A stretch of 64,000 bases of DNA from Spirochaetia bacterium. Its GTDB lineage: Bacteria > Spirochaetota > Spirochaetia > CADAEX01. Position 1 is the first letter of the stretch; each line of letters begins with the position of its first letter. Position numbers and translations under genes: made by a program. Below are positions 45,024 to 55,202 of this stretch, piece after piece. Where the stretch lies: contig JAFSOR010000009.1 of the NCBI GenBank assembly GCA_017446885.1, forward strand, positions 102,159-166,158, given 5' to 3'. Under the pieces are notes generated by a model, which worked only from the letters and a program-made list of their open reading frames with translations, did not search any database and was not told the DNA's origin.

Positions 45024-46103
45024 ATGCTGATTGTTCAGATAGCCATAAACATTTCTATAATAATTCTGGCAATATATATCATCCACCTTATTTACCATAA
45101 AATTGTATATTTCGGCTATTCTCCAAAGCAGGTGGCATTCCTTATAGGACAGCAGAAGATGGTGCTTGACAACCTTAAGGTCGGCATCATATACACAGAC
45201 ATCAGGGGCAAGATAATACTCCTGAATGCGGCAGGAAAAAGCCTTCTGCAGCTGGATGACAGCGCCATAGGGACCAATGTCAAAAACTATTTTTTCAAAG
45301 AGCCTTTCCTCGATATTATAGAGCAATCCGAGAATATACAGTCCAGAGAGATAAGGGTGTCGGCGGGCAACACAATACTGTTCCGTTTCCATGTGGTGCG
45401 GAATCCAGACCTTGAGCAGACTATAGGAATAATAGCCAGCATAGAGGACCTTACCATAGTCAAGCAGAGGGCCGAGGAGCTTACAGGCATGCGCAAGCTT
45501 ATGGGCGAGGTAAGGGCACAGAACCACGAGTTCATGAACAAGCTGCACACAATATCGGGTCTTATACAGCTTGAGGAGTATCAGGAGGCCATAGACTTCA
45601 TAGAACGCTCTTCCCGGGCAAGCCAGAAGCTTATTGGTATAATTAGTTCTAAAATCAAGGAACCCAGCGTGGCAGGACTTTTGCTTTCCAAGTGCAACAA
45701 GGCCAGCGAGAAAAAGGTGCGCCTTATCATAAACGAAGAGACTTATATGAGCTCGCTGCCAGAGAAGATGCATAAGGATGAGTTCTGCTCAATCGTGGGT
45801 AACCTTATAGAGAATTCGCTTGACGAGCTGGCCGGCCGCACCGACGGAATTATAGAGGTTGGCCTTTTCCAGGGCGAGGAAGAGATGAATATAACTGTAT
45901 TTGACAACGGCCGTGGTATTCCCGAGGAGATGCAGAAGAAGATATTCGAGAAAGGGCACAGTTCCAAAGGGGAAAACCGCGGATTCGGCCTTTATATCAT
46001 CAAGGAAATAGTTGACACCTACGGCGGAAAAATACGATTATGGTGTGAGTCTGGCACTATGATAGTAATAACCATTCCAATGAGGCAGGAGAAAGATAAA
46101 TGA
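45024..46103 (+). CDS. sensor histidine kinase, CitA/DcuS-like
   Basis: N-terminal TM, PAS-like region, SpoOB-type HK core with H-box ([14 protein letters not shown]), HATPase G-boxes (DNGRGIP, GFGLY). Confidence 0.7.
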
Positions 46104-46783
46104 AGATTCTGATAGTAGAAGATGACCCTATGGTAGCTCATATAAATCTGAAGTTTGCAAACAAGGCAGGCTACGATGATGTTGACACAGTATCTGACAT
46201 AGAAAGCGCAAAGGAGCGTATTCTTAATGGCAATGTAGACCTGGTCCTTCTGGATGTCTATCTGCCTACAGGCAAGGGTACCGACCTTTTAAAGTGGATA
46301 CGGCAGGAAAACCTTAGCACCGATGCAATCCTTATTACAGCAGACCACAGTTCCGAGACTGTTGAGATGGCAATGAACTTCGGTGCTGTGGACTACCTGA
46401 TAAAACCATTTGATTTTGCCAGGTTCCAGCTTGCCATGGACAAGTTCGAGCGCAAGAAAAGTGGCATTGTAAGCAAGAAAAGTGTAGAACAGGACGACAT
46501 AGACAGTATCTTCTTTGACTATGCGACAAAGAGCGATAAAATCAAGTCTGTGCTGGACAAAGGGATGAGCGAGAAAACCTATACAACAATCCTGGATGCA
46601 ATAAAGTCAATCAATGCACCCACAACAGCCGAAGAGCTGGGCGACAGGCTTGGAATATCCAGAGTCTCTGTGCGCCGGTATCTTGAGTTCATGGAGACCC
46701 AGGGGATACTTGAGATGAAGCCTGTATATGGCAAGAAGGGAAGGCCTCAGCATCTGTTTAAATATGTACAAGAGGGTAATTGA
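46100..46783 (+). CDS. response regulator, CitB/DcuR-like (REC + C-terminal HTH)
   Basis: REC with D-D-K residues; C-terminal wHTH; overlaps the kinase stop by 4 bp. Confidence 0.7.
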
Positions 46784-46900: not shown

Positions 46901-48337
46901 ATGAAAAGATATTATTTCATTTTTCTTTTTTTTGTCCTTGCAATTGCTGGCTGCGGAGGCAGTGGCGGAAGCAGCAGTGATGACAACGGCGGAGGCGGAT
47001 GAGGCGATGGTGATACGGCTGGCCTCTGCTTTACTTCTTCTGGATCAACTGTTGTCTCAATCAGAATAAATGGAACTCTTGATAATATTCCGACCCTTGA
47101 CTATTCAAAAGATGGTTCAACTTGGACTCCAATTGTTCTGAAAAATGACGATACAGTTAAAGTTTCTGATCTTTCAGATGGTGAAAAGGTATATTTAAGG
47201 GCACATAATACTAATAACTCTTTCTCTGAAAGTGTTTCTAAATTCATACAATTCGTATTCACTGGTACAGGTTCTATCTCAGCCAGTGGTAATATAATGA
47301 GTCTTCTTGATAAGACACTCAGTTCAACTAAAATACCTTGTGACAGATGTTTTTGCAGGCTTTTTGAGAATTGTACAGCATTAACCAGAGCCCCAATTTT
47401 GCCAGCAGTAACATTGACAAGTGGCTGCTATCAAAATATGTTCGATGGATGCACTAACCTTAAGACAGCTCCGATCCTTCCTGCATTGACAATGAAGAAT
47501 CAATGTTATTGTAGAATGTTTGAAGGCTGTACAAGCCTAGTGACAGCCCCGGCTCTTCCTGCAACAACATTAGCAGATACGTGCTATACAGAAATGTTCT
47601 CTGGATGCACAAGCCTTGTAACACCTCCAGTTCTACCCGCAGAAACTTTGGCAAGTGAATGTTATTCGGGGATGTTCGCTGGCTGTACAAGCCTTGCGAC
47701 AGCTCCATCTCTTCCTGCGACAGCATTGGCAGATAGTTGTTATTCAGAAATGTTCTCTGGATGCACAAGCCTTGCGACAGCTCTATCTCTTCCTGCGACA
47801 GCATTGGCAGATAGTTGTTATTCAGAAATGTTCTCTGGATGCACAAGCCTTACGACAGCTCCGGCTCTGCCCGCAGAAACTTTGGCAAGTGAATGTTATC
47901 ATTCTATGTTCACTGGCTGTACAAGCCTAGTGACAGCCCCGGCTCTTCCTGCAACAACATTAGCAGATACGTGCTATTATGGTATGTTCAGTGTTTGTAT
48001 AAACCTTTTAAATGCCCCAACTCTTCCTGCAACAGTATTAAAAACTAATTGTTATCATTCTATGTTCTATAACTGTACAAGCCTTGTGACAGCTCCTGAT
48101 CTTCCAGCAATAACGTTGGTAGATGGTTGTTATTCATTAATGTTTAACAGCTGTACAAACTTAAATTATATTAAAGTTTCTTTTACCAGTTGGGGTCCAC
48201 AGACTAATGGCTGGGTCTATAATGTAAAAAAGGATGGAACATTCGTTTGTCCTGAGTCGTTAGCAATGGAGCCAGGAAGTAGCGGAGATAGAGGTGTAAA
48301 CAAGGTCCCAATAAGTTTTTTCGTCGAAAACCCCTGA
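46901..48337 (+). pseudogene. BspA/LrrA-type leucine-rich-repeat surface lipoprotein gene interrupted by a single in-frame TGA at 47000..47002
   Basis: lipoprotein signal MKRYYFIFLFFVLAIAGC plus Gly/Ser linker in the same frame as downstream ORF 47297..48337; about eleven 26-aa repeats LPxxTLxxxCYxxMFxGCTSLxTAPx. Confidence 0.55.
47390..48170 (+). repeat. tandem 78-bp (26-codon) Cys-containing LRR units with several near-identical copies
   Basis: units at 47711..47788 and 47789..47866 are about 90 percent identical; a 43-nt string (agccccggctcttcctgcaacaacattagcagatacgtgctat) occurs at both ~47539 and ~47935. Confidence 0.75.
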
Positions 48338-50080: not shown

Positions 50081-50782
50081 ATGCATTTCGGATTCAATGA
50101 GATGATGTGGTTTGCTGTGCTTATAGTGAACTTCATCATAGTATTGGCTGTCTACCGTTTCATGGGAAAGACAGGTCTTTTCGTATGGATGGCTATTGCC
50201 AGCATCCTGGCAAATATCCAGGTACTTAAATTGGTGGAATTCTTCGGGTGGAATATAACTTTGGGCAATGTGCTCTATGGCACATCATTCCTGGCTACTG
50301 ATATTATCTCGGAGAACTATTCCAAGGAGCTGGCCCATAAATCGATATGGGTAGGGTTCTTTGCCATGATCTCCATGATCATACTCATGACACTCTCCTG
50401 CCTTTTCATACCTGCTGCCGATGACTTTATCTCGGAGCCTATGAAGGCTATTTTCACCGTAATCCCACGGGTATCATTCGCAAGCCTTATCGCTTATCTG
50501 GTATCTCAGAACTTCGATGTATGGGCATACCATTTCTGGAAAAATAAGTTTCCTGATACTAAGTTCATTTTTATACGGAACAACCTGAGCACCATGACAA
50601 GCCAGCTTATAGACAGCGCAATATTCACCACTATAGCTTTTGCCGGGATGTATCCTTTCAAGGTGCTGGTTCAGATTATCATCTCCACCTATGTGCTCAA
50701 ATGGCTGGTGGCTTTCTTTGACACCGGATGTGTATACATAGCTGCCAGCTGGTTCAAGAACAGTAAAGTCCGGGAGATGTGA
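50081..50782 (+). CDS. queuosine-precursor transporter (YhhQ/COG1738 family)
   Basis: 6-7 TM protein with family-typical motifs; start placed at the ATG at 50081, 6 nt downstream of GGGAG (the ORF-track start at 50057 lies inside the riboswitch). Confidence 0.75.
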   Translation: MHFGFNEMMWFAVLIVNFIIVLAVYRFMGKTGLFVWMAIASILANIQVLKLVEFFGWNITLGNVLYGTSFLATDIISENYSKELAHKSIWVGFFAMISMIILMTLSCLFIPAADDFISEPMKAIFTVIPRVSFASLIAYLVSQNFDVWAYHFWKNKFPDTKFIFIRNNLSTMTSQLIDSAIFTTIAFAGMYPFKVLVQIIISTYVLKWLVAFFDTGCVYIAASWFKNSKVREM

Positions 50783-51411
50783 TGGATAAAGGCTTTAAGG
50801 AATATCTTGACCAGTTTGTTGAGTTCACCAGCCAGTATAATAAAGAGATTTATTATGCAAATCAGGGACGGGATGATATACAGTCGCCAGTAGAGCCTGA
50901 GATAGGGCGTTTTCTGGCATTCCTCATCAAGAGTACTGGTGCAAGGAAAGTTCTGGAGCTGGGAACCGGGGTAGGAAACTCGACTATATGGCTTGCTGAG
51001 GCAGTAAAGGAAATTGGCGGCAATGTCACCACTGTTGACAACCATCCCCGCACCTGGAAGGAAGCCTGCGGGAATATAGAGAAATCGGGGCTTAAAGATT
51101 ATGTTGTCATGATACATTCCGACGTGGATGAAGCCACACGCAAGCTTAAAGAAGAAGGAGCAGTATTTGACATAATCTTCCAAGACTGCGGAAAATATAC
51201 CTACACAGTTATCTACGAGGATGTGGCAGCTTTGGTTAGAAAGGGCGGTATAATTGTTGCCGACGACACCATGTTCCCTGTATGCCAAGGGGTCAGACCC
51301 AACCTGGGCCGCCACATGGACCGGTACAACAGGCTGGTTTTTGCAGACCAGCGCTTCTTCTCCACCATGCTTCCAGTGGGTCACGGTCTGACCTTAAGCT
51401 GGAAAAAATAA
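50779..51411 (+). CDS. class I SAM-dependent O-methyltransferase (family 3, TrmR/YrrM-like)
   Basis: SAM motif VLELGTGVGNST; overlaps the yhhQ stop by 4 bp (co-transcribed). Confidence 0.7.
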   Translation: MMDKGFKEYLDQFVEFTSQYNKEIYYANQGRDDIQSPVEPEIGRFLAFLIKSTGARKVLELGTGVGNSTIWLAEAVKEIGGNVTTVDNHPRTWKEACGNIEKSGLKDYVVMIHSDVDEATRKLKEEGAVFDIIFQDCGKYTYTVIYEDVAALVRKGGIIVADDTMFPVCQGVRPNLGRHMDRYNRLVFADQRFFSTMLPVGHGLTLSWKK

Positions 51412-51443
51412 TAACAATTGATGAGAACTCCGGAGAATAAATT

Positions 51444-53105
51444 ATGAAAAAGAATTTGAAACGGTTGATTATTGCTGTTCTCGCACTTTGCCTTTTCAGC
51501 CTTGCAACATGTAAAAGCCCATCTTCTTTAACCGGAACGGAAGATGGTGCGAAGGGTAACGAGGCAGTGAGAGTCGTCTGTGAAAACGGCATCATGCTGG
51601 GAAAGTCCTCAGATGGAGTCATATCCTTCAAGGGTGTCCCGTTTGCAAAACCGCCTGTGAATGAACTTCGCTGGAAAGCGCCTCAGGCTCTGGCCCCGAG
51701 TGATCAGGAGATCAAATGCTACGATTTCGGATACACCGCGCTGCAGTATGAGTGGCCGTCTGAACTGGCGTCATATTCACCTAAAAGCGAAGACTGTCTG
51801 ACGCTGAACATCTGGGAGAAAGAAGGGATCATCGGCAGTGAAGAACAAAAACCCGTGATGGTATTTTTTCACGGAGGCGCTTACGGATGGGGAGGAACTA
51901 CAGATCCTGTATATAACGGACAGAATTTTGCAAAGGCACACGACGATGTTATTATAGTAACTTGTAATTATCGTCTCGGGCTTATGTCGTTTGCAGATTT
52001 TTCCAAGGTCGAAGGGGGAGAAGAATACACTGATATCAATCTCGGAATCCGTGATCATATCGCTGCGTTGCAGTGGATACAAAAGAATATAAGCGGATTC
52101 GGGGGAGATCCTGATAATGTTACTATATTCGGCGAATCGGCAGGCGCATGGTCCACTACCGCTCTGACAATCTCGCCTAAGGCAAGAGGACTGTTTAAGA
52201 GAGCTATCGCCCAGAGCGGACAGGTTGCGCCAAAAAGCAGAGAAGATGCTCAGAAGTATGCGGAGTTCATCATGCAATCAAGCGGCGCCAAAAATATGAA
52301 AGAGCTAATGGCTATTTCGGGAGAAGAGTGGATGAAAATCGACGCCGAGAAGATGATAGCCGACGAATGCTGTTATGTGGTTGCCGATGGGGATATCATT
52401 CCCGAAGATTTCGACAAGGCAATCGAGGATGCTGCAAAGAGGGGGATACAGCTGCTCATTGGGACAAATAACGATGAATGGAATTACTTTCAAGAGGATT
52501 CCATAGGAAAAACCACACAGGAGAAATTCAATTCCTGGGTAGAAGGAATGGATGGTATAATCGCCGGAGCCCGCGACATGACGGATAATGAAGGAAAAGC
52601 GGCAATCGAAGAACTTATCCAATACGAAGAGAATATTGTTCCTGAGGAATATGCAGGCGATGAAAAGGTTAAGTCTGCCCTGACCAAGTCTGGGGTTGTA
52701 TCAGAACTGTGGAGATACGAGATACTGAATTTTGCTGACAAGTTCGCAGACGCCGGAGGAGATACATACGTATATCTTTGGAATGTTCCTTCAACCAGAG
52801 ATGATATGTATAAGAGCGCGGTTCACGCTGTTGAACTGCCATATATATTCAATAATATGGAGACAGATCAATGCGCCGGAGAAGTTGCCCCCAATGTAGC
52901 CGCAAAAGCACAGAAATCATGGATCAGCTTTGCAAAGACAGGAGACCCGACCGTCCAGGGGGTGGACTGGAAGAAATACAACACAGCCGAAAGAGATATA
53001 ATGGTCATAGAAAAGGATAAGTGGGATTGTATTCCCGATCCTTCAAACACAGCGCGTGAGCTTCTATGGAAGGCGTTTAAAGACGAGCCATACCATGTAT
53101 GGTGA
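51444..53105 (+). CDS. carboxylesterase type B (para-nitrobenzyl-esterase-like), lipoprotein
   Basis: lipobox SLATC; nucleophile elbow GESAGA; HGGAY oxyanion region; 553 aa. Confidence 0.85.
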   Translation: MKKNLKRLIIAVLALCLFSLATCKSPSSLTGTEDGAKGNEAVRVVCENGIMLGKSSDGVISFKGVPFAKPPVNELRWKAPQALAPSDQEIKCYDFGYTALQYEWPSELASYSPKSEDCLTLNIWEKEGIIGSEEQKPVMVFFHGGAYGWGGTTDPVYNGQNFAKAHDDVIIVTCNYRLGLMSFADFSKVEGGEEYTDINLGIRDHIAALQWIQKNISGFGGDPDNVTIFGESAGAWSTTALTISPKARGLFKRAIAQSGQVAPKSREDAQKYAEFIMQSSGAKNMKELMAISGEEWMKIDAEKMIADECCYVVADGDIIPEDFDKAIEDAAKRGIQLLIGTNNDEWNYFQEDSIGKTTQEKFNSWVEGMDGIIAGARDMTDNEGKAAIEELIQYEENIVPEEYAGDEKVKSALTKSGVVSELWRYEILNFADKFADAGGDTYVYLWNVPSTRDDMYKSAVHAVELPYIFNNMETDQCAGEVAPNVAAKAQKSWISFAKTGDPTVQGVDWKKYNTAERDIMVIEKDKWDCIPDPSNTARELLWKAFKDEPYHVW

Positions 53106-53230
53106 TATATATATCCTGACCCTCAGCTGGAAAAGATAATATATCTTATAAAATATATTGCTGTCTCTATTTATTTTTGCATTATTATATGATAATCTTT
53201 ATAATTGGAGGCATAATTATTCCAATCGAT

Positions 53231-53896
53231 ATGACAAAAATTACAAAGGAAATGGCTGCTAAAGCATTGGAGTGCAAGACAGCCGATGACCTGGTTTCCC
53301 TTGCTAAGGCCAACGGTGTCACGCTTACAAAGGAAGAGGCTGAGGCCTACTTGGCTGACCTTGAGGATGTTGAACTTGACGAGAAAGCTCTTGATAAAGT
53401 GGCAGGAGGATCCTGTTACACTCAAACGTCTTGCGATAATAATGAATGTAATCCCGCCCACCCCAAGTGCTTTACAGGCGATTCAGAGGTGGCTGTGCCT
53501 GGCGGTGTAAAGTGCATCAAGGATTTGCAGCTTGGAGACAAAGTTATTACCTTGGATGCATCTGGGAAGGAGATTGTAGGCGTGGTGACCGAAGTGGTTC
53601 CGCCGACAGAAGAGGATATTGTGGAGGTCACTTTCTCCAATGGCACACTTTGGCGGACAACCGAAAGCCAGACCCTGTATCTGGGACATGAGCAGAATTA
53701 TATGGTAAAGGATGCGAAAGGAAAGAAAGCCCTTTTACGTGATGGCGGAACTGCCACTGTGACAGATGTCAAGTTCACAGGAAAGCGGGAGACAGTATAT
53801 GACGTTCTGGTTGGCGAGGAGGAGGATGAGGATGTCATCTTCGTCTCTGGAATTGCTGCCGAAGGATATTTTACCAAGGGTGAGCGAGGACTGTAA
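53231..53896 (+). CDS. leader-peptide precursor: Nif11-like double-glycine leader (60 aa) + 19-aa Cys-rich core + C-terminal Hint (hedgehog/intein-like) domain
   Basis: leader ...ELDEKALDKVAGG; core SCYTQTSCDNNECNPAHPK; Hint block A CFTGDSEVAV, GDKV, block F-like VYDVLV...VIFVSGIAAEG; possible ATT start at 53219 at ideal SD spacing. Confidence 0.7.
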   Translation: MTKITKEMAAKALECKTADDLVSLAKANGVTLTKEEAEAYLADLEDVELDEKALDKVAGGSCYTQTSCDNNECNPAHPKCFTGDSEVAVPGGVKCIKDLQLGDKVITLDASGKEIVGVVTEVVPPTEEDIVEVTFSNGTLWRTTESQTLYLGHEQNYMVKDAKGKKALLRDGGTATVTDVKFTGKRETVYDVLVGEEEDEDVIFVSGIAAEGYFTKGERGL

Positions 53897-53914
53897 TGAA
53901 AAAGAGGAGGAAAA

Positions 53915-54145
53915 ATGCCTATCGATAAGACAAAAATTTCAAAGGCAATGCTTGAAAAAGCGAGAGAGTGCAAGACAGCCGATGAGCTGATGATCCGGGC
54001 AAAGGCCGAAGGTTTCATACTGACAAAAGAAGAGGCCGAGGCTTACATGGACGAGCTGGATGACATTGAACTGGACGAGAAAGCACTTGATAAAGTGGCA
54101 GGTGGAAACTGTTATACAAAGTGTGCTTTAGAAGGCCCGATGTAA
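53915..54145 (+). CDS. small Nif11-like double-glycine-leader precursor peptide, core NCYTKCALEGPM
   Basis: strong RBS GAGGAGG; leader MPIDKTKISKAML...LDEKALDKVAGG; 76 aa. Confidence 0.7.
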   Translation: MPIDKTKISKAMLEKARECKTADELMIRAKAEGFILTKEEAEAYMDELDDIELDEKALDKVAGGNCYTKCALEGPM

Positions 54146-54166
54146 GATTATACAAGGAGGAAAAAT

Positions 54167-54400
54167 ATGAAAATTGACAAGACAAAAATTTCAAAAGCAA
54201 TGATTGATAAAGCTTTGAAGTGCGAATCTGCTGAGGAGCTGATGGCTATTGCTAAGGCTGAGGGTCTTGAAATCACCAAAGATGAGGCAGAGGCATACAT
54301 GGCAGAGCTTGACAACATGGAACTGGACAATGCTGCTCTGGATAATGTGGCTGCTGGTTATTGTCATCGTACCACCCCATGCACGGAAGTATTTCGTTGA
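54167..54400 (+). CDS. small Nif11-like leader precursor peptide (leader ends VAAG), core YCHRTTPCTEVFR
   Basis: RBS AGGAGG; leader MKIDKTKISKAMI...LDNAALDNVAAG; 77 aa. Confidence 0.65.
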   Translation: MKIDKTKISKAMIDKALKCESAEELMAIAKAEGLEITKDEAEAYMAELDNMELDNAALDNVAAGYCHRTTPCTEVFR

Positions 54401-54451
54401 TCGGCATTCACTGCATAATAATCAGTGAACCACGAGTAGTATTAGGAGACA

Positions 54452-54691
54452 ATGAATACGGCAAACATCAACAAAAATGACCTGACAAAGGAACAGGTTG
54501 CTAAGGCGATGGCCTGCAAAACTGCGGAGGAACTGATGGCTCTGGCAAAATCCGAGGGCATGGAACTTACGAAAGAAGAGGCCTAGGCTTACATGGCAGA
54601 GATTGAGGACGTTGAACTTGATGAGAAAGCTCTTGATAAAGTGGCCGGCGGTGGCTGTTACTCAGATTGTAAAGCTGAAGCTTGGCTTTAA
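54452..54691 (+). pseudogene. fourth leader-peptide precursor copy with an in-frame TAG at 54584..54586 (core GCYSDCKAEAWL)
   Basis: RBS AGGAG; MNTANINKNDLTKEQVAKAMACKTAEELMALAKSEGMELTKEEA-stop-AYMAEIEDVELDEKALDKVAGGGCYSDCKAEAWL; GAG-to-TAG relative to the paralogs. Confidence 0.55.
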
Positions 54692-54705
54692 TTTAGGGGG
54701 AATAT

Positions 54706-54813
54706 ATACCGATTGATAAATCAAAAATCACCACAGAGATGATCGAGAGGGCCAAGCAGTGCGAGAATGCCGATGAACTGGTGGCTCTTGCCAAAAAAAG
54801 GAGAACAATATGA
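54706..54813 (+). pseudogene. fifth leader copy remnant: start codon ATA, leader truncated after ...ELVALAKK, runs into the next gene's RBS
   Basis: translation IPIDKSKITTEMIERAKQCENADELVALAKKRRTI aligns with the N-termini of copies 1-3. Confidence 0.4.
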
Positions 54814-55202
54814 AGTCAGTATATGAATTCATAAAGAAGTGCGGTGTATATTACCTGGCCACAGTGGAAGGGGACCAGCCCCGGGTGAGGCCATTCGGCA
54901 CTATAAATATCTTCGAGGGAAAGCTCTATATCCAGACAGGGAAGGTGAAGCCCGTATCCAAGCAGATTGCTGCTGATCCGAAGGTGGAGCTCTCATGTTT
55001 TGACGGCGCTACATGGTTAAGGCTTTCCGGCACACTGGTCAACGACGACCGTATTGAGCCTAAGATTGATATGCTTGTGCATTTCCCTGAGCTCAAATCT
55101 ATCTATGCAGCTGACGATGACAACACCCAGGTGCTCTATTTCAAGGATGCCAAGGCTGTGTTCTCCACCTTCACAGCACCACCAAAAGTAGTAGAGTTCT
55201 AA
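54810..55202 (+). CDS. pyridoxamine-5'-phosphate-oxidase-family (split-barrel FMN-binding) protein
   Basis: 130 aa; PNPOx-like pattern (VYYLATVEGDQPRVRPF...). Confidence 0.55.
   Translation: MKSVYEFIKKCGVYYLATVEGDQPRVRPFGTINIFEGKLYIQTGKVKPVSKQIAADPKVELSCFDGATWLRLSGTLVNDDRIEPKIDMLVHFPELKSIYAADDDNTQVLYFKDAKAVFSTFTAPPKVVEF

What the first reader, a model, noticed from the sequence alone, without database searches (positions are those of the whole stretch)
53219..54813. Tandem array of five Nif11-like leader-peptide genes with hypervariable short Cys-containing cores in a spirochete
Five consecutive same-strand genes share a ~58-60-aa leader (consensus ..IDKTKISKAM..KA..CKTA.EL..LAKA.G..LTKEEAEAYM..L.D.ELDEKALDKVAGG). 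Its pattern (AKA-G-x-x-LTKEE...ELSDEELDKVAGG) matches the Nif11-like (N11P) RiPP leaders known from prochlorosin-type clusters that end in a double-glycine cleavage site. The cores differ completely: SCYTQTSCDNNECNPAHPK+Hint, NCYTKCALEGPM, YCHRTTPCTEVFR and GCYSDCKAEAWL. All keep a C-[YH]-x(2-4)-C motif. Leader nucleotide identity is high (e.g. gttgaacttgacgagaaagctcttgataaagtggc shared almost exactly by copies 1 and 4), indicating recent duplication and a constant-leader, variable-core cassette logic. Nif11-type leaders are mainly reported from cyanobacteria and proteobacteria, so an array in a Treponema-like genome is itself unusual. Each intact copy has its own strong SD.
Basis: partly seen in the sequence, partly recalled or inferred. 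Interest (0 to 1): 0.85.

Follow-up and report, generated by a model that had tools for sequence, protein, structure and literature searches.

The report
Satellite array of Nif11-type peptide precursors
A rumen spirochete carries a row of five small genes (three intact) for peptides that share a Nif11-type leader but end in different short cysteine-containing cores. One is fused to a self-cleaving Hint domain. They belong to a large undescribed peptide family whose radical-SAM tailoring enzymes are encoded elsewhere in the genome.

Summary
Window 53219-54813 (+) has five tandem copies of a ~60-64-aa leader ending in a double-glycine motif. Only three are intact: c1, c2 and c3. c4 has an in-frame TAG, and c5 is a start-less 31-codon stump.

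All four testable copies hit TIGR03798 (Nif11-like leader) as the best family, but below its cut-off. Close homologues pass it, and NCBI already names some of them as such.

Leaders within the window are only 65-78% identical in DNA, so this is not a recent duplication. The cores are a finite set of conserved types, nearly all starting x-C-[Y/W/H], and they are shuffled between leaders.

The 64-kb window holds no maturase or exporter. The same organism has a separate gene cluster with two radical-SAM/SPASM enzymes, a DUF7005 protein, at least 12 more precursors and further Hint fusions. This rests on shared samples and adjacent NCBI accessions. Related loci carry the NHLP-type C39 ABC exporter pair and an ECF sigma factor. 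A cultured rumen Selenomonas has the complete homologous cluster.

c1 is the unusual part: leader, core, then a C-terminal Hint domain. It represents 208 clusters, and I found no literature on it.

Verdict: a known kind (N11P precursors) in a new variant.

The parts
53176..53205 (+). Sigma-70-like promoter match (TTTGCA-18-TATAAT) upstream of the array. No terminator-like site lies on the + strand inside the array, which fits a single transcript.
   Evidence: This is a consensus match only (10 of 12 positions), not evidence of function.
53207..53211 (+). GGAGG Shine-Dalgarno site of c1. It lies 7 nt before ATT 53219 (homologous to the ATG of 'MPID' in the other copies) and 19 nt before ATG 53231, so the c1 start codon is ambiguous.
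   Evidence: Sequence. The same 'GGIIIPID' upstream context occurs in homologues P0005, P0008, P0009, P0012 and P0013.
53231..53410 (+). c1 leader (60 aa counted from ATG 53231), Nif11-type, ending in ...LDKVAGG.
   Evidence: TIGR03798 E = 1.1e-5, 25.6 bits. Leader HMM E = 4e-33. The AF2 model shows four helices. The exact protein is NCBI MBR0318244.1.
53411..53467 (+). c1 core, SCYTQTSCDNNECNPAHPK. This is a conserved core type, SC[YW]xxxxCDxNE[CT]NPAHP[KH].
   Evidence: The segment is disordered in the AF2 model.
53468..53896 (+). c1 C-terminal Hint (intein-like / Hedgehog-like) autoprocessing domain, starting at the invariant Cys. Block B reads T-E-S-Q, with Gln in place of His. There is no C-terminal Asn (the end reads ...GIAAEGY). 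The stop codon is at 53894-53896.
   Evidence: Pfam Hint_2, 33.9 bits against 28.4. Foldseek matches BIL2, mini-inteins and Hedgehog at E = 1e-9 to 1e-7. The Cys aligns on the Hedgehog catalytic Cys. hhalign against Npu DnaE. Clade alignment.
53915..54145 (+). c2: intact precursor with a 64-aa leader and core NCYTKCALEGPM (54107-54142). Its SD is GAGGAGG.
   Evidence: The exact protein was found on 5 contigs.
54167..54400 (+). c3: intact precursor with a leader ending in AAG and core YCHRTTPCTEVFR (54359-54397). Its SD is AGGAGG.
   Evidence: The exact protein is NCBI MBR0318246.1, a hypothetical protein of a Spirochaetia bacterium. Its orthologue in L015 has 90% leader DNA identity.
54452..54691 (+). 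c4: precursor with a second leader subtype (MNTANINKNDLTKEQ...), interrupted by TAG at 54584-54586 (GAG changed to TAG). Its core is GCYSDCKAEAWL (54653-54688). It is a probable pseudogene. A downstream ATG at 54593 could still give a 32-aa mini-precursor.
54706..54813 (+). c5: remnant with ATG changed to ATA and leader codons 1-31 only, truncated at the ribosome-binding site and ATG of the next gene. It is orthologous to the DCYAECNKD-type gene at the same position in L015.
51444..53105 (+). Upstream flank: a carboxylesterase (COesterase) with a lipoprotein-like N-terminus. It is part of the variable segment between the conserved O-methyltransferase (50779-51411) and the PNPOx-like gene, and is not conserved next to the arrays in other species.
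54810..55202 (+). Downstream flank: a PNPOx_N-like small protein. It is the conserved right border of the variable hot spot.

Best explanation
The region is a satellite ('orphan') array of precursor genes for a ribosomally made, post-translationally modified peptide (RiPP) family that is widespread in rumen Spirochaetia.

Each intact gene encodes a structured, helical Nif11-type leader of about 60-64 aa. The leader ends in a double-glycine site and is followed by a short core (12-19 aa here) that almost always starts x-C-[Y/W/H].

Inferred steps:
1. The leader recruits radical-SAM/SPASM maturases encoded in trans, in a separate cluster of the same organism. That cluster has two paralogous rSAMs, a DUF7005 HExxH protein, at least 12 more precursors and more Hint fusions.
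2. The maturases most likely make Cys-derived thioether cross-links. A three-residue cyclophane at the [Y/W/H]-x-x site is the alternative.
3. An NHLP-type pair of ABC transporters, one carrying a C39 peptidase domain, cuts after GG and exports the product.

The first gene, c1, additionally carries a C-terminal Hint domain. Its invariant Cys directly follows the core. It should convert the core-Hint peptide bond into a thioester and release the core from the domain.

The array sits in a strain-variable hot spot that holds restriction and other defence genes in related species. Its cores are exchanged as cassettes between leaders and between species. This fits peptides used in competition or signalling in a dense community. 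Three copies are likely functional and two are decayed.

Shown: the anatomy, family membership, the co-occurring enzymes, the cassette shuffling and the Hint fold. Inferred: the chemistry, the cleavage, the export and the biological role.
For: Leader family:
- TIGR03798 is the top hit for all four copies. A family member scores 43.5 bits, above the 32.3 cut-off.
- There are 530 homologous clusters, some named 'Nif11-like leader peptide family RiPP precursor [Spirochaetia bacterium]'.
- The leader profile matches the solved 'Nif11 domain-containing protein' 9zn4.

Nothing in cis:
- There is no rSAM maturase, DUF7005 or ABC signature in the 64 kb.

Enzymes in trans in the same organism:
- rSAM P0244 is NCBI MBR0318381.1, 135-137 accession numbers after the exact c1 and c3 proteins (MBR0318244.1 and MBR0318246.1).
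- A second rSAM, MBQ3319765.1, lies 683 numbers after a GroEL identical to the window's.
- P0244 contigs come from the same two samples as the window locus, ERZ28019070 and ERZ28654179.
- Those contigs carry rSAM - precursor - DUF7005 - precursors - rSAM - precursor - Hint fusions.
- The same architecture occurs in L012-L014, L017-L019 and L027-L029.

Type of rSAM:
- The best models are the thioether/Cys-rich-peptide maturases TIGR04463, CefB, Clo7bot and PapB.
- The closest solved structure is 5wgg/5why, which from my own knowledge is CteB.

Export:
- L025 has a TIGR03797 ABC at 732.9 bits, above the 709 cut-off, and a truncated TIGR03796 C39-ABC, next to an ECF sigma factor and 5-9 kb from a c1-type gene.
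- Selenomonas sp. AB3002 has MFPs, a C39-ABC, a second ABC, an ECF sigma factor, precursors with the same leader, an rSAM and a homologous 617-aa protein.

Cores:
- 39 of 44 distinct cores have CY at positions 2-4.
- Cassette shuffling.
- Core DNA is 45/45 nt identical between genomes that are 85.6% identical in the flanks.

Hot spot.

Hint domain.
Against: - The window copies score below the curated TIGR03798 cut-off.
- The same-genome link rests on metagenome sample identity and consecutive accession numbers, not on a closed genome.
- No C39 exporter was found for this organism itself, nor inside any of the spirochaete rSAM clusters whose borders were seen (L012).
- The rSAMs are far below every equivalog cut-off (157 bits against 525 for the best), so the reaction type is only a superfamily-level guess.
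- None of the window's c2-c4 core types was seen next to an rSAM.
- Two of the five copies are defective.
- The Hint domain lacks the otherwise near-universal block-B histidine.
- There are no expression or peptide data.
Confidence: 0.7

Rival explanations
1. The maturation chemistry is not thioether formation. Instead it is a three-residue cyclophane (aromatic ring to the beta-carbon of residue +2) at the conserved [Y/W/H]-x-x site that follows the first Cys, or a mixture of chemistries made by the two or three paralogous rSAMs.
For: The residue after the first Cys is almost always Tyr, Trp or His. Some family cores have no Cys at all but do have Tyr, for example GNGYAGDY, SSYSDGYGDEP and RTQIGAFTY. 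The cyclophane and C-C-forming models YhhB, FxsB and DynA also hit the rSAMs. The clusters hold 2-3 rSAM paralogues that are only 68-71% identical.
Against: Thioether-type models score higher: TIGR04463 157 bits, CefB 150 and PapB 108, against DynA 107, YhhB 69 and FxsB 57. The closest solved structure by sequence is 5wgg/5why. The Cys itself is the most conserved core residue.
Confidence: 0.25
2. The peptides are unmodified double-glycine (class II type) bacteriocins or pheromones. They would only be cleaved after GG and exported, with the two Cys of the CxxxC motif forming a disulfide. The array needs no maturase.
For: There is no modifying enzyme within 64 kb. Weak hits to double-glycine leader models occur: Bacteriocin_IIc, ComC and TIGR01847 at E = 0.03-3. 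The C-x(3-5)-C spacing would allow a disulfide.
Against: The leader is a long, structured Nif11 domain, not a 15-30-aa GG leader. The same leader is embedded next to rSAM/SPASM genes in every cluster examined, including in the same organism. The x-C-[Y/W/H] dyad is conserved even in single-Cys cores such as GTCYTAY and ALCYSNLGIAGER, which cannot form an internal disulfide.
Confidence: 0.12
3. The array is a decaying relic with no present function, made of leftovers of cassette traffic at a recombination hot spot.
For: c4 has a nonsense codon fixed in three near-identical strains, and c5 is a start-less stump. In a sister strain a deletion removes c4, c5 and two flanking genes. c1 lacks a canonical start at the SD-optimal position.
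Against: c1-c3 are intact, with SD sites. The c1, c2 and c3 cores are conserved in strains at 93% flank identity and in a species at 85.6%. The c1-type core is conserved with 9 synonymous against 5 non-synonymous codon changes in distant homologues. The exact proteins recur on many contigs.
Confidence: 0.1
4. The genes are prochlorosin-like class II lanthipeptide precursors processed by a LanM enzyme elsewhere in the genome.
For: They have a Nif11-type leader with GG, and many scattered paralogues far from any enzyme, as in Prochlorococcus.
Against: No LanM-like gene appears in any of about 30 loci with these leaders. The enzymes that consistently co-localise are rSAM/SPASM proteins. Several cores have no Ser or Thr to dehydrate, or no Cys.
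Confidence: 0.02

Closest known systems
N11P (TIGR03798) Nif11-derived RiPP precursors, e.g. prochlorosin ProcA peptides
   Same: A Nif11-related leader. [quoted passage not shown] The cores are variable and Cys-containing. The paralogous families are large, and many members lie far from the modifying enzyme. They are linked to the TIGR03796/TIGR03797 ABC export pair.
   Different: The partner enzymes are radical-SAM/SPASM proteins, not LanM or cyclodehydratase. The cores are very short (7-22 aa) and form a finite set of conserved types starting x-C-[Y/W/H]. The host is a rumen spirochaete. The window copies fall just below the model's cut-off. Some precursors carry a Hint domain.
Thioether-forming SPASM radical-SAM RiPP systems (ranthipeptides and sactipeptides: CteB/SCIFF, PapB/freyrasin, CefB 'Cys-every-fifth', TIGR04463, Clo7bot)
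   Same: A SPASM-domain rSAM of about 500 aa lies next to several short Cys-rich precursors. These families are the best-scoring models and the closest solved structure.
   Different: Scores are 3-6 times below every family cut-off, so this is a separate subfamily. The leader is Nif11-type. The clusters hold 2-3 paralogous rSAMs plus DUF7005 and an ECF sigma factor. The chemistry is untested.
Hedgehog C-terminal domain, bacterial intein-like (BIL) domains and the Tetrahymena BUBL BIL domains
   Same: A Hint fold with an N-terminal catalytic Cys placed directly after a cargo. There is no C-terminal Asn, so only the N-terminal (thioester-forming) step is possible. The domain ends the protein. 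From my own knowledge, these systems use the thioester to release the cargo or to ligate it to a nucleophile.
   Different: The cargo is a leader-bearing RiPP core of 10-22 aa. Block B reads TxxQ instead of TxxH throughout the clade. The terminal motif AAEG[YF] is distinctive. Part of the family adds half a Nif11 leader after the Hint domain.
Class II double-glycine bacteriocins and pheromones exported by C39 peptidase-containing ABC transporters
   Same: The ...ELDxxxLDKVAGG motif resembles the GG-leader consensus, and strain-variable tandem genes are typical.
   Different: The leader is 60-64 aa and folded, not 15-30 aa. The genes are linked to rSAM maturases.
Homologous cluster in the cultured rumen isolate Selenomonas sp. 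AB3002 (GCA_000702545.1, JNIO01000008.1)
   Same: The leader family is the same (HMM E = 1e-26 to 1e-29). The rSAM is 49% identical. The roughly 600-aa unknown protein is homologous (47%), and so is the ECF sigma factor (37-43%). The cluster also has the C39-ABC/ABC pair and MFPs in one locus.
   Different: The phylum is different. No Hint fusion or DUF7005 was seen in the 21 kb examined. The cluster has not been characterised experimentally as far as I could find.

Membership tests
N11P / TIGR03798 (Nif11-like leader peptide family RiPP precursor) | Match to the TIGR03798 model at or above its curated cut-off (32.3 bits) | tested here: inconclusive
   The window copies score 25.1-27.9 bits (E = 2e-6 to 1.5e-5). 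TIGR03798 is the top family in each case but the scores are below the cut-off. Members of the same tight family score 31.4 and 43.5 bits. NCBI names P0059, P0081, P0086 and P0092 with this family name.
N11P / TIGR03798 | [quoted passage not shown] | tested here: met
   Similarity ends at ...LDKVAGG (AAG in c3). The cores are unrelated to one another and contain Cys.
N11P / TIGR03798 | Paralogous expansion within a genome | tested here: met
   There are five copies in the window, and at least 12 more on L031/L032 from the same samples and MAG.
N11P / TIGR03798 | Co-occurrence with a peptide-modifying enzyme in the same genome (LanM, cyclodehydratase or rSAM) | tested here: met
   rSAM/SPASM proteins are linked to the window's organism in two ways. 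NCBI accessions are adjacent (MBR0318381.1 against MBR0318244.1/246.1, and MBQ3319765.1 against MBQ3319082.1). The contigs come from the same samples. There is no closed genome, so this is strong but indirect.
N11P / TIGR03798 | Association with the NHLP-type export cassette (TIGR03796 C39-ABC plus TIGR03797 ABC) | tested here: inconclusive
   This is met in the related loci L025 (TIGR03797 732.9 bits against 709.4, and a truncated TIGR03796 at 606 bits) and L030. The cassette is absent from the 64-kb window and was not located for this organism.
N11P / TIGR03798 | The leader is actually removed after GG and the core is modified | not testable with these tools
   This needs peptide chemistry.
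Prochlorosin-type class II lanthipeptides | A LanM synthetase in the genome and Ser/Thr plus Cys pairs in the cores | tested here: not met
   No LanM appears in any fetched locus, and the co-localised enzymes are rSAM/SPASM proteins. The whole genome was not available.
Ranthipeptide / sactipeptide maturase families (PapB NF047865, SCIFF TIGR03974, CefB NF038107, TIGR04463) | Maturase match above the equivalog cut-off | tested here: not met
   TIGR04463 scores 157 bits against 525, CefB 150 against 600, PapB 108 against 340 and SCIFF 67 against 425. The SPASM domain itself is present (TIGR04085, 49 bits against 27).
Ranthipeptide / sactipeptide | A Cys sulfur-to-carbon thioether in the product | not testable with these tools
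   This is inferred only from superfamily-level similarity and the conserved Cys.
Hint superfamily (inteins, BIL, Hedgehog C-terminal domain), for c1 | Hint fold and profile match | tested here: met
   Pfam Hint_2 scores 33.9 bits against 28.4. The AF2 Hint part has pLDDT of about 85-95. Foldseek matches BIL2, gp41-1 intein, C. thermocellum BIL and Hedgehog at E = 1e-9 to 2e-7, with target TM-scores of 0.72-0.87.
Hint superfamily | Nucleophilic Cys/Ser as the first residue of the domain | tested here: met
   Cys80 is invariant in the 24-sequence alignment and in 119 of 120 listed homologues (the exception could not be parsed). It aligns on the Hedgehog catalytic Cys.
Hint superfamily | Block B T-x-x-H motif (the His assists the N-S acyl shift) | tested here: not met
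   The Thr is conserved. The His position is an invariant Gln (T144-E-S-Q147) in this family and in the wider C-terminal Hint clade.
Inteins (protein splicing) | A C-terminal Asn/Gln plus a +1 Cys/Ser/Thr for branch resolution and ligation | tested here: not met
   The domain ends ...GIAAEGY-F-T with no His-Asn. The protein ends 8 residues later. It is therefore not a splicing intein.

The most novel reading that the evidence does not exclude
The Hint domain fused to c1, and to about 200 related precursor clusters, is a built-in activating module. After the radical-SAM enzymes have cross-linked the core, Cys80 would turn the core's C-terminal peptide bond into a thioester. That thioester would then be captured intramolecularly (by a Cys thiol, the N-terminal amine or a Lys) or by an external nucleophile. 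The result would be a macrocyclic or C-terminally ligated peptide without any separate cyclase. This would be a natural counterpart of intein-based peptide cyclisation and of Hedgehog cholesteroylation, inside a RiPP pathway. It would use an unusual TxxQ catalytic variant shared by a small clade of C-terminal Hint domains.
Probability: 0.3. Interest if true: 0.85.

Novelty: new variant of a known kind. Interest (0 to 1): 0.62.

Why it matters
The array is one visible piece of a large RiPP system in ruminant gut bacteria that, as far as I could find, is undescribed. The system has more than 500 precursor clusters and about 300 rSAM clusters. It spans Spirochaetia and Selenomonadales.

Its features make the enzymology worth testing:
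- multiple paralogous SPASM radical-SAM enzymes
- an HExxH protein of unknown function
- an almost universal x-C-[Tyr/Trp/His] dyad at the start of the core
- precursors that carry their own Hint autoprocessing domain

If the Hint domain makes a thioester on a modified peptide, that would be a new biosynthetic logic for RiPPs and a potentially useful tool for peptide cyclisation or ligation.

The strain-level turnover of cassettes, in a hot spot that otherwise collects restriction and defence genes, suggests a role in competition among rumen bacteria. A cultured Selenomonas isolate with the homologous complete cluster makes the system experimentally reachable.

Tried and rejected
1. I looked for a maturase or exporter in cis. 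tblastn with the rSAMs and DUF7005, Pfam scans of the ten largest ORFs, and motif scans for LSGGQ and CX3CX2C found only housekeeping genes and RlmN.
2. I tested the idea that the 3' end of the leader is a nucleotide-level recombination anchor. Across 49 unique leaders, codon identity at same-residue positions is not higher in the last 11-16 codons (0.48-0.50) than elsewhere (0.53-0.67). I rejected the idea as a general rule, although the break point between w_c4 and L015_g4 does lie in that region.
3. I tried to show that the rSAM lies on the window's own contig by matching 'longest contig' lengths (201,267 or 563,829 bp). No rSAM cluster had those values. The link was made instead through NCBI accession adjacency and sample identity.
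4. The single genome-contig scan with the rSAM alignment used poorly chosen N-terminal patterns. It returned only three relevant loci, all short rumen MAG contigs.
5. I considered the nearby histidine kinase and response regulator (45024-46783) as a sensor for the peptides. The pair is conserved in all species regardless of array content and is of the CitA/DcuS-like type, so I found no support.
6. I considered DUF7005 as an alpha-ketoglutarate HExxH hydroxylase. It has no NCBIfam match, and oxygen-dependent chemistry is unlikely in a rumen anaerobe. Its role is left open, either peptidase or other.
7. Seven literature searches combining Nif11 with Hint, intein, Treponema, rumen or ranthipeptide, or combining Hint or intein-like with RiPP or radical SAM, found nothing describing this system.


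Full report
**1. What is in the sequence**

Between a carboxylesterase gene (51444-53105) and a PNPOx-like gene (54810-55202), the + strand carries five tandem copies of one leader sequence.

- c1 (53231-53896) encodes a 60-aa leader ending LDKVAGG, a 19-aa core SCYTQTSCDNNECNPAHPK and a 142-aa Hint domain.
- c2 (53915-54145) has the core NCYTKCALEGPM and is intact, with its own SD site.
- c3 (54167-54400) has the core YCHRTTPCTEVFR and a leader ending in AAG. It is also intact, with its own SD site.
- c4 (54452-54691) has the core GCYSDCKAEAWL. It carries an in-frame TAG at 54584-54586, which is also present in two 99.5%-identical strains from other samples.
- c5 (54706-54813) has ATA in place of the start codon. 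It stops after leader codon 31, where it runs into the next gene.

The start of c1 is ambiguous. Its SD site is 7 nt from an ATT at the position homologous to the ATG of the other copies, and 19 nt from ATG 53231. A promoter-like site lies upstream of c1, and no terminator-like site lies inside the array.

**2. The leader**

All four testable copies have TIGR03798 (Nif11-like leader peptide family RiPP precursor) as their best NCBIfam family. E-values are 2e-6 to 1.5e-5, but scores are 25-28 bits against a cut-off of 32.3. Pfam Nif11 is also sub-threshold.

A search of 5.8 billion proteins gave 530 homologous clusters. Those with a name are from 'Spirochaetia bacterium' MAGs, and several are already called Nif11-like leader RiPP precursors by NCBI or JGI. 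A member of the same family reaches 43.5 bits. A profile of the family matches the solved 'Nif11 domain-containing protein' 9zn4. The AF2 model gives a four-helix leader and a disordered core.

The defining features listed by Haft et al. 2010 are met: GG at the end of the similarity, a variable Cys-rich core, and paralogous expansion.

The window's GroEL is identical to that of NCBI Spirochaetia MAGs. Sample names and the genome scan point to ruminant gut metagenomes.

**3. Not a recent duplication, and not hypervariable**

Leader DNA identity among the window's copies is 65-74% global and 72-78% local.

Among the 120 closest homologues there are only 44 distinct cores. Many recur unchanged on many contigs, and 39 of the 44 have Cys-Tyr at positions 2-4. 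In the clusters the dyad is C-[Y/W], and c3 has C-H.

Leaders and cores are shuffled. Leaders that are 100% identical carry unrelated cores (GTCYTAY against ALCYSNLGIAGER). Identical cores sit on leaders only 67% identical.

Between the window and a species with 85.6% flank identity (L015):
- The GCYSDCKAEAWL core DNA is 45/45 nt identical although the leaders it is attached to are 64% identical.
- The c4 leader (91% identical to L015 g6) carries a different core there.

A general nucleotide-level anchor at the leader's 3' end was tested and not found.

**4. Where the array sits**

The segment between the O-methyltransferase and the PNPOx-like gene is a variable hot spot.
- A sister strain has an extra precursor and a deletion reaching mutL.
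- L015 has eight precursor genes split by a type I restriction system and a Fic gene.
- L009 and L010 have one precursor amid KilA-N, ORF6N, type I R-M or GmrSD genes.
- Another c1-type gene lies among Cas2, primase, KAP NTPase and WYL genes.

**5. Partners**

The 64-kb window contains no maturase or ABC exporter. Elsewhere the same leaders are embedded in clusters of the following form: [ECF sigma] - precursors - rSAM/SPASM (about 505 aa) - precursor - DUF7005 - precursors and Hint fusions - second (and third) rSAM. These are L012-L014, L017-L019 and L027-L029.

Such a cluster belongs to the window's organism, on two lines of evidence:
- rSAM P0244 is NCBI MBR0318381.1. The exact c1 and c3 proteins are MBR0318244.1 and MBR0318246.1. 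Another rSAM, MBQ3319765.1, follows a GroEL identical to the window's (MBQ3319082.1) by 683 numbers.
- P0244 contigs come from the same two samples as the window locus. They carry two rSAMs, DUF7005, at least 12 precursors and two Hint fusions.

The rSAMs resemble Cys-rich-peptide and thioether maturases most closely (TIGR04463, CefB, Clo7bot, PapB), but far below their cut-offs. The closest solved structure by sequence is 5wgg/5why. DUF7005 has a conserved HExxH motif. Such proteins in RiPP clusters may be hydroxylases rather than peptidases.

The NHLP/N11P export pair (TIGR03796 C39-ABC plus TIGR03797 ABC), with an ECF sigma factor, lies 5-9 kb from a c1-type gene in L025.

In the cultured Selenomonas sp. 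AB3002 one locus unites MFPs, the C39-ABC, a second ABC, an ECF sigma factor, precursors with the same leader, an rSAM (49% identical) and a homologous roughly 600-aa protein.

**6. The Hint fusion**

c1 represents 208 clusters of leader - core - Hint proteins. The leader and the Hint domain are constant (about 70% identical or more), while the 10-22-aa core between them varies. c1's own core type is widely conserved. These genes typically follow an rSAM gene directly.

- The fold matches BIL domains, mini-inteins and the Hedgehog C-terminal domain.
- The first Cys aligns with the Hedgehog catalytic Cys.
- The block-B His is an invariant Gln, and there is no C-terminal Asn, so splicing is excluded.
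- The Hint domain alone has only 152 relatives among 1.84 billion representatives. These form a clade that is always C-terminal, with CF.., TT.[ST]Q and AAEG[YF] motifs. It includes other double-glycine-leader + short peptide + Hint proteins.
- Part of the family carries half a Nif11 leader after the Hint domain.

I found no literature on this architecture.

**7. Most likely mechanism, and verdict**

The array supplies extra substrates to a trans-acting rSAM pathway. The Nif11 leader is the handle, the x-C-[Y/W/H] start of the core is the likely modification site, and GG is cut by a C39 ABC exporter. c1 is additionally processed at its core-Hint junction.

The reaction type, export in this organism and the biological role are inferred. 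Rivals are cyclophane chemistry, unmodified GG bacteriocins, a decaying relic and lanthipeptides. They are weighed in their own sections.

The finding is real. Its basic reading is right, but the kind (N11P precursors) is known and auto-annotated. The novelty lies in the rSAM system behind it and in the Hint-fused precursors.

Noticed in passing
window 53207-53233: The first gene of the array has its SD site at optimal spacing from an ATT codon, homologous to the ATG of the other copies, rather than from the annotated ATG 53231. The same 'GGIIIPID' context recurs in first-in-array genes of other strains. This suggests a non-canonical or weak start.
   Followed up: partly
window 54584-54691: Downstream of the TAG in c4, an ATG at 54593 opens a 32-aa ORF (MAEIEDVELDEKALDKVAGG|GCYSDCKAEAWL). 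It keeps only the GG-proximal part of the leader and has a weak SD-like GAAGAGG 11 nt upstream. It could still be an exportable mini-precursor.
   Followed up: no
window 54653-54691 vs L015 10193-10231: The core-plus-stop DNA of GCYSDCKAEAWL is 45/45 nt identical between genomes whose flanks are 85.6% identical. Two other shared core types differ only by non-synonymous changes (0 synonymous). This suggests recent cassette transfer between species rather than purifying selection alone.
   Followed up: partly
window 47297-48337: A BspA-type leucine-rich-repeat gene has internal tandem repeats. Its length differs between strains (346, 320 and 481 aa), and it is missing in a sister strain.
   Followed up: no
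window 51412-54809 compared with L009, L010 and L015: The interval between the O-methyltransferase and the PNPOx-like gene is a hot spot. In related species it holds type I restriction systems, GmrSD, Fic, KilA-N/ORF6N and AAA_14 genes, together with one to eight Nif11-type precursor genes.
   Followed up: partly
L031 5254-5556 (also L032, L034): A 100-aa hybrid gene encodes a signal-peptide-like N-terminus, then leader positions 33-64 with GG, then the core SRVCYAVDNCASKIRKNDCVHMF. It may be a Sec-dependent variant of the precursor.
   Followed up: no
L012 10216-10557: The first 30 residues of a Hint domain (MECSKCFAGDSQVAVPGGVKYIKDFKVGDK) are fused in frame to a complete new leader and core. 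This looks like a recombination scar. Four Hint fusions in the same locus end in half a Nif11 leader (...EAEVYIA).
   Followed up: partly
P0465-P0508: A small clade of C-terminal Hint domains has Gln in place of the block-B His and an AAEG[YF] end motif. It terminates proteins of 500-1700 aa, preceded by a '...NTMYSGRMGTGSTTTT...' linker. It also terminates other double-glycine-leader peptides with unrelated leaders.
   Followed up: partly
L012 6168-6275, L017 1669-1760, L025 5433-5705, L030 9521-9805: A short ORF or N-terminal extension with the motif ADF[SA]xENxGLxxR follows the cluster's ECF sigma factor gene in spirochaete and Selenomonas loci. It may be an anti-sigma element.
   Followed up: no
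L027 13624-15348 and L030 11860-13713: A protein of about 570-617 aa with no Pfam match is conserved at 47% identity next to the rSAM in both spirochaete and Selenomonas clusters. It is an uncharacterised core component of the system.
   Followed up: no
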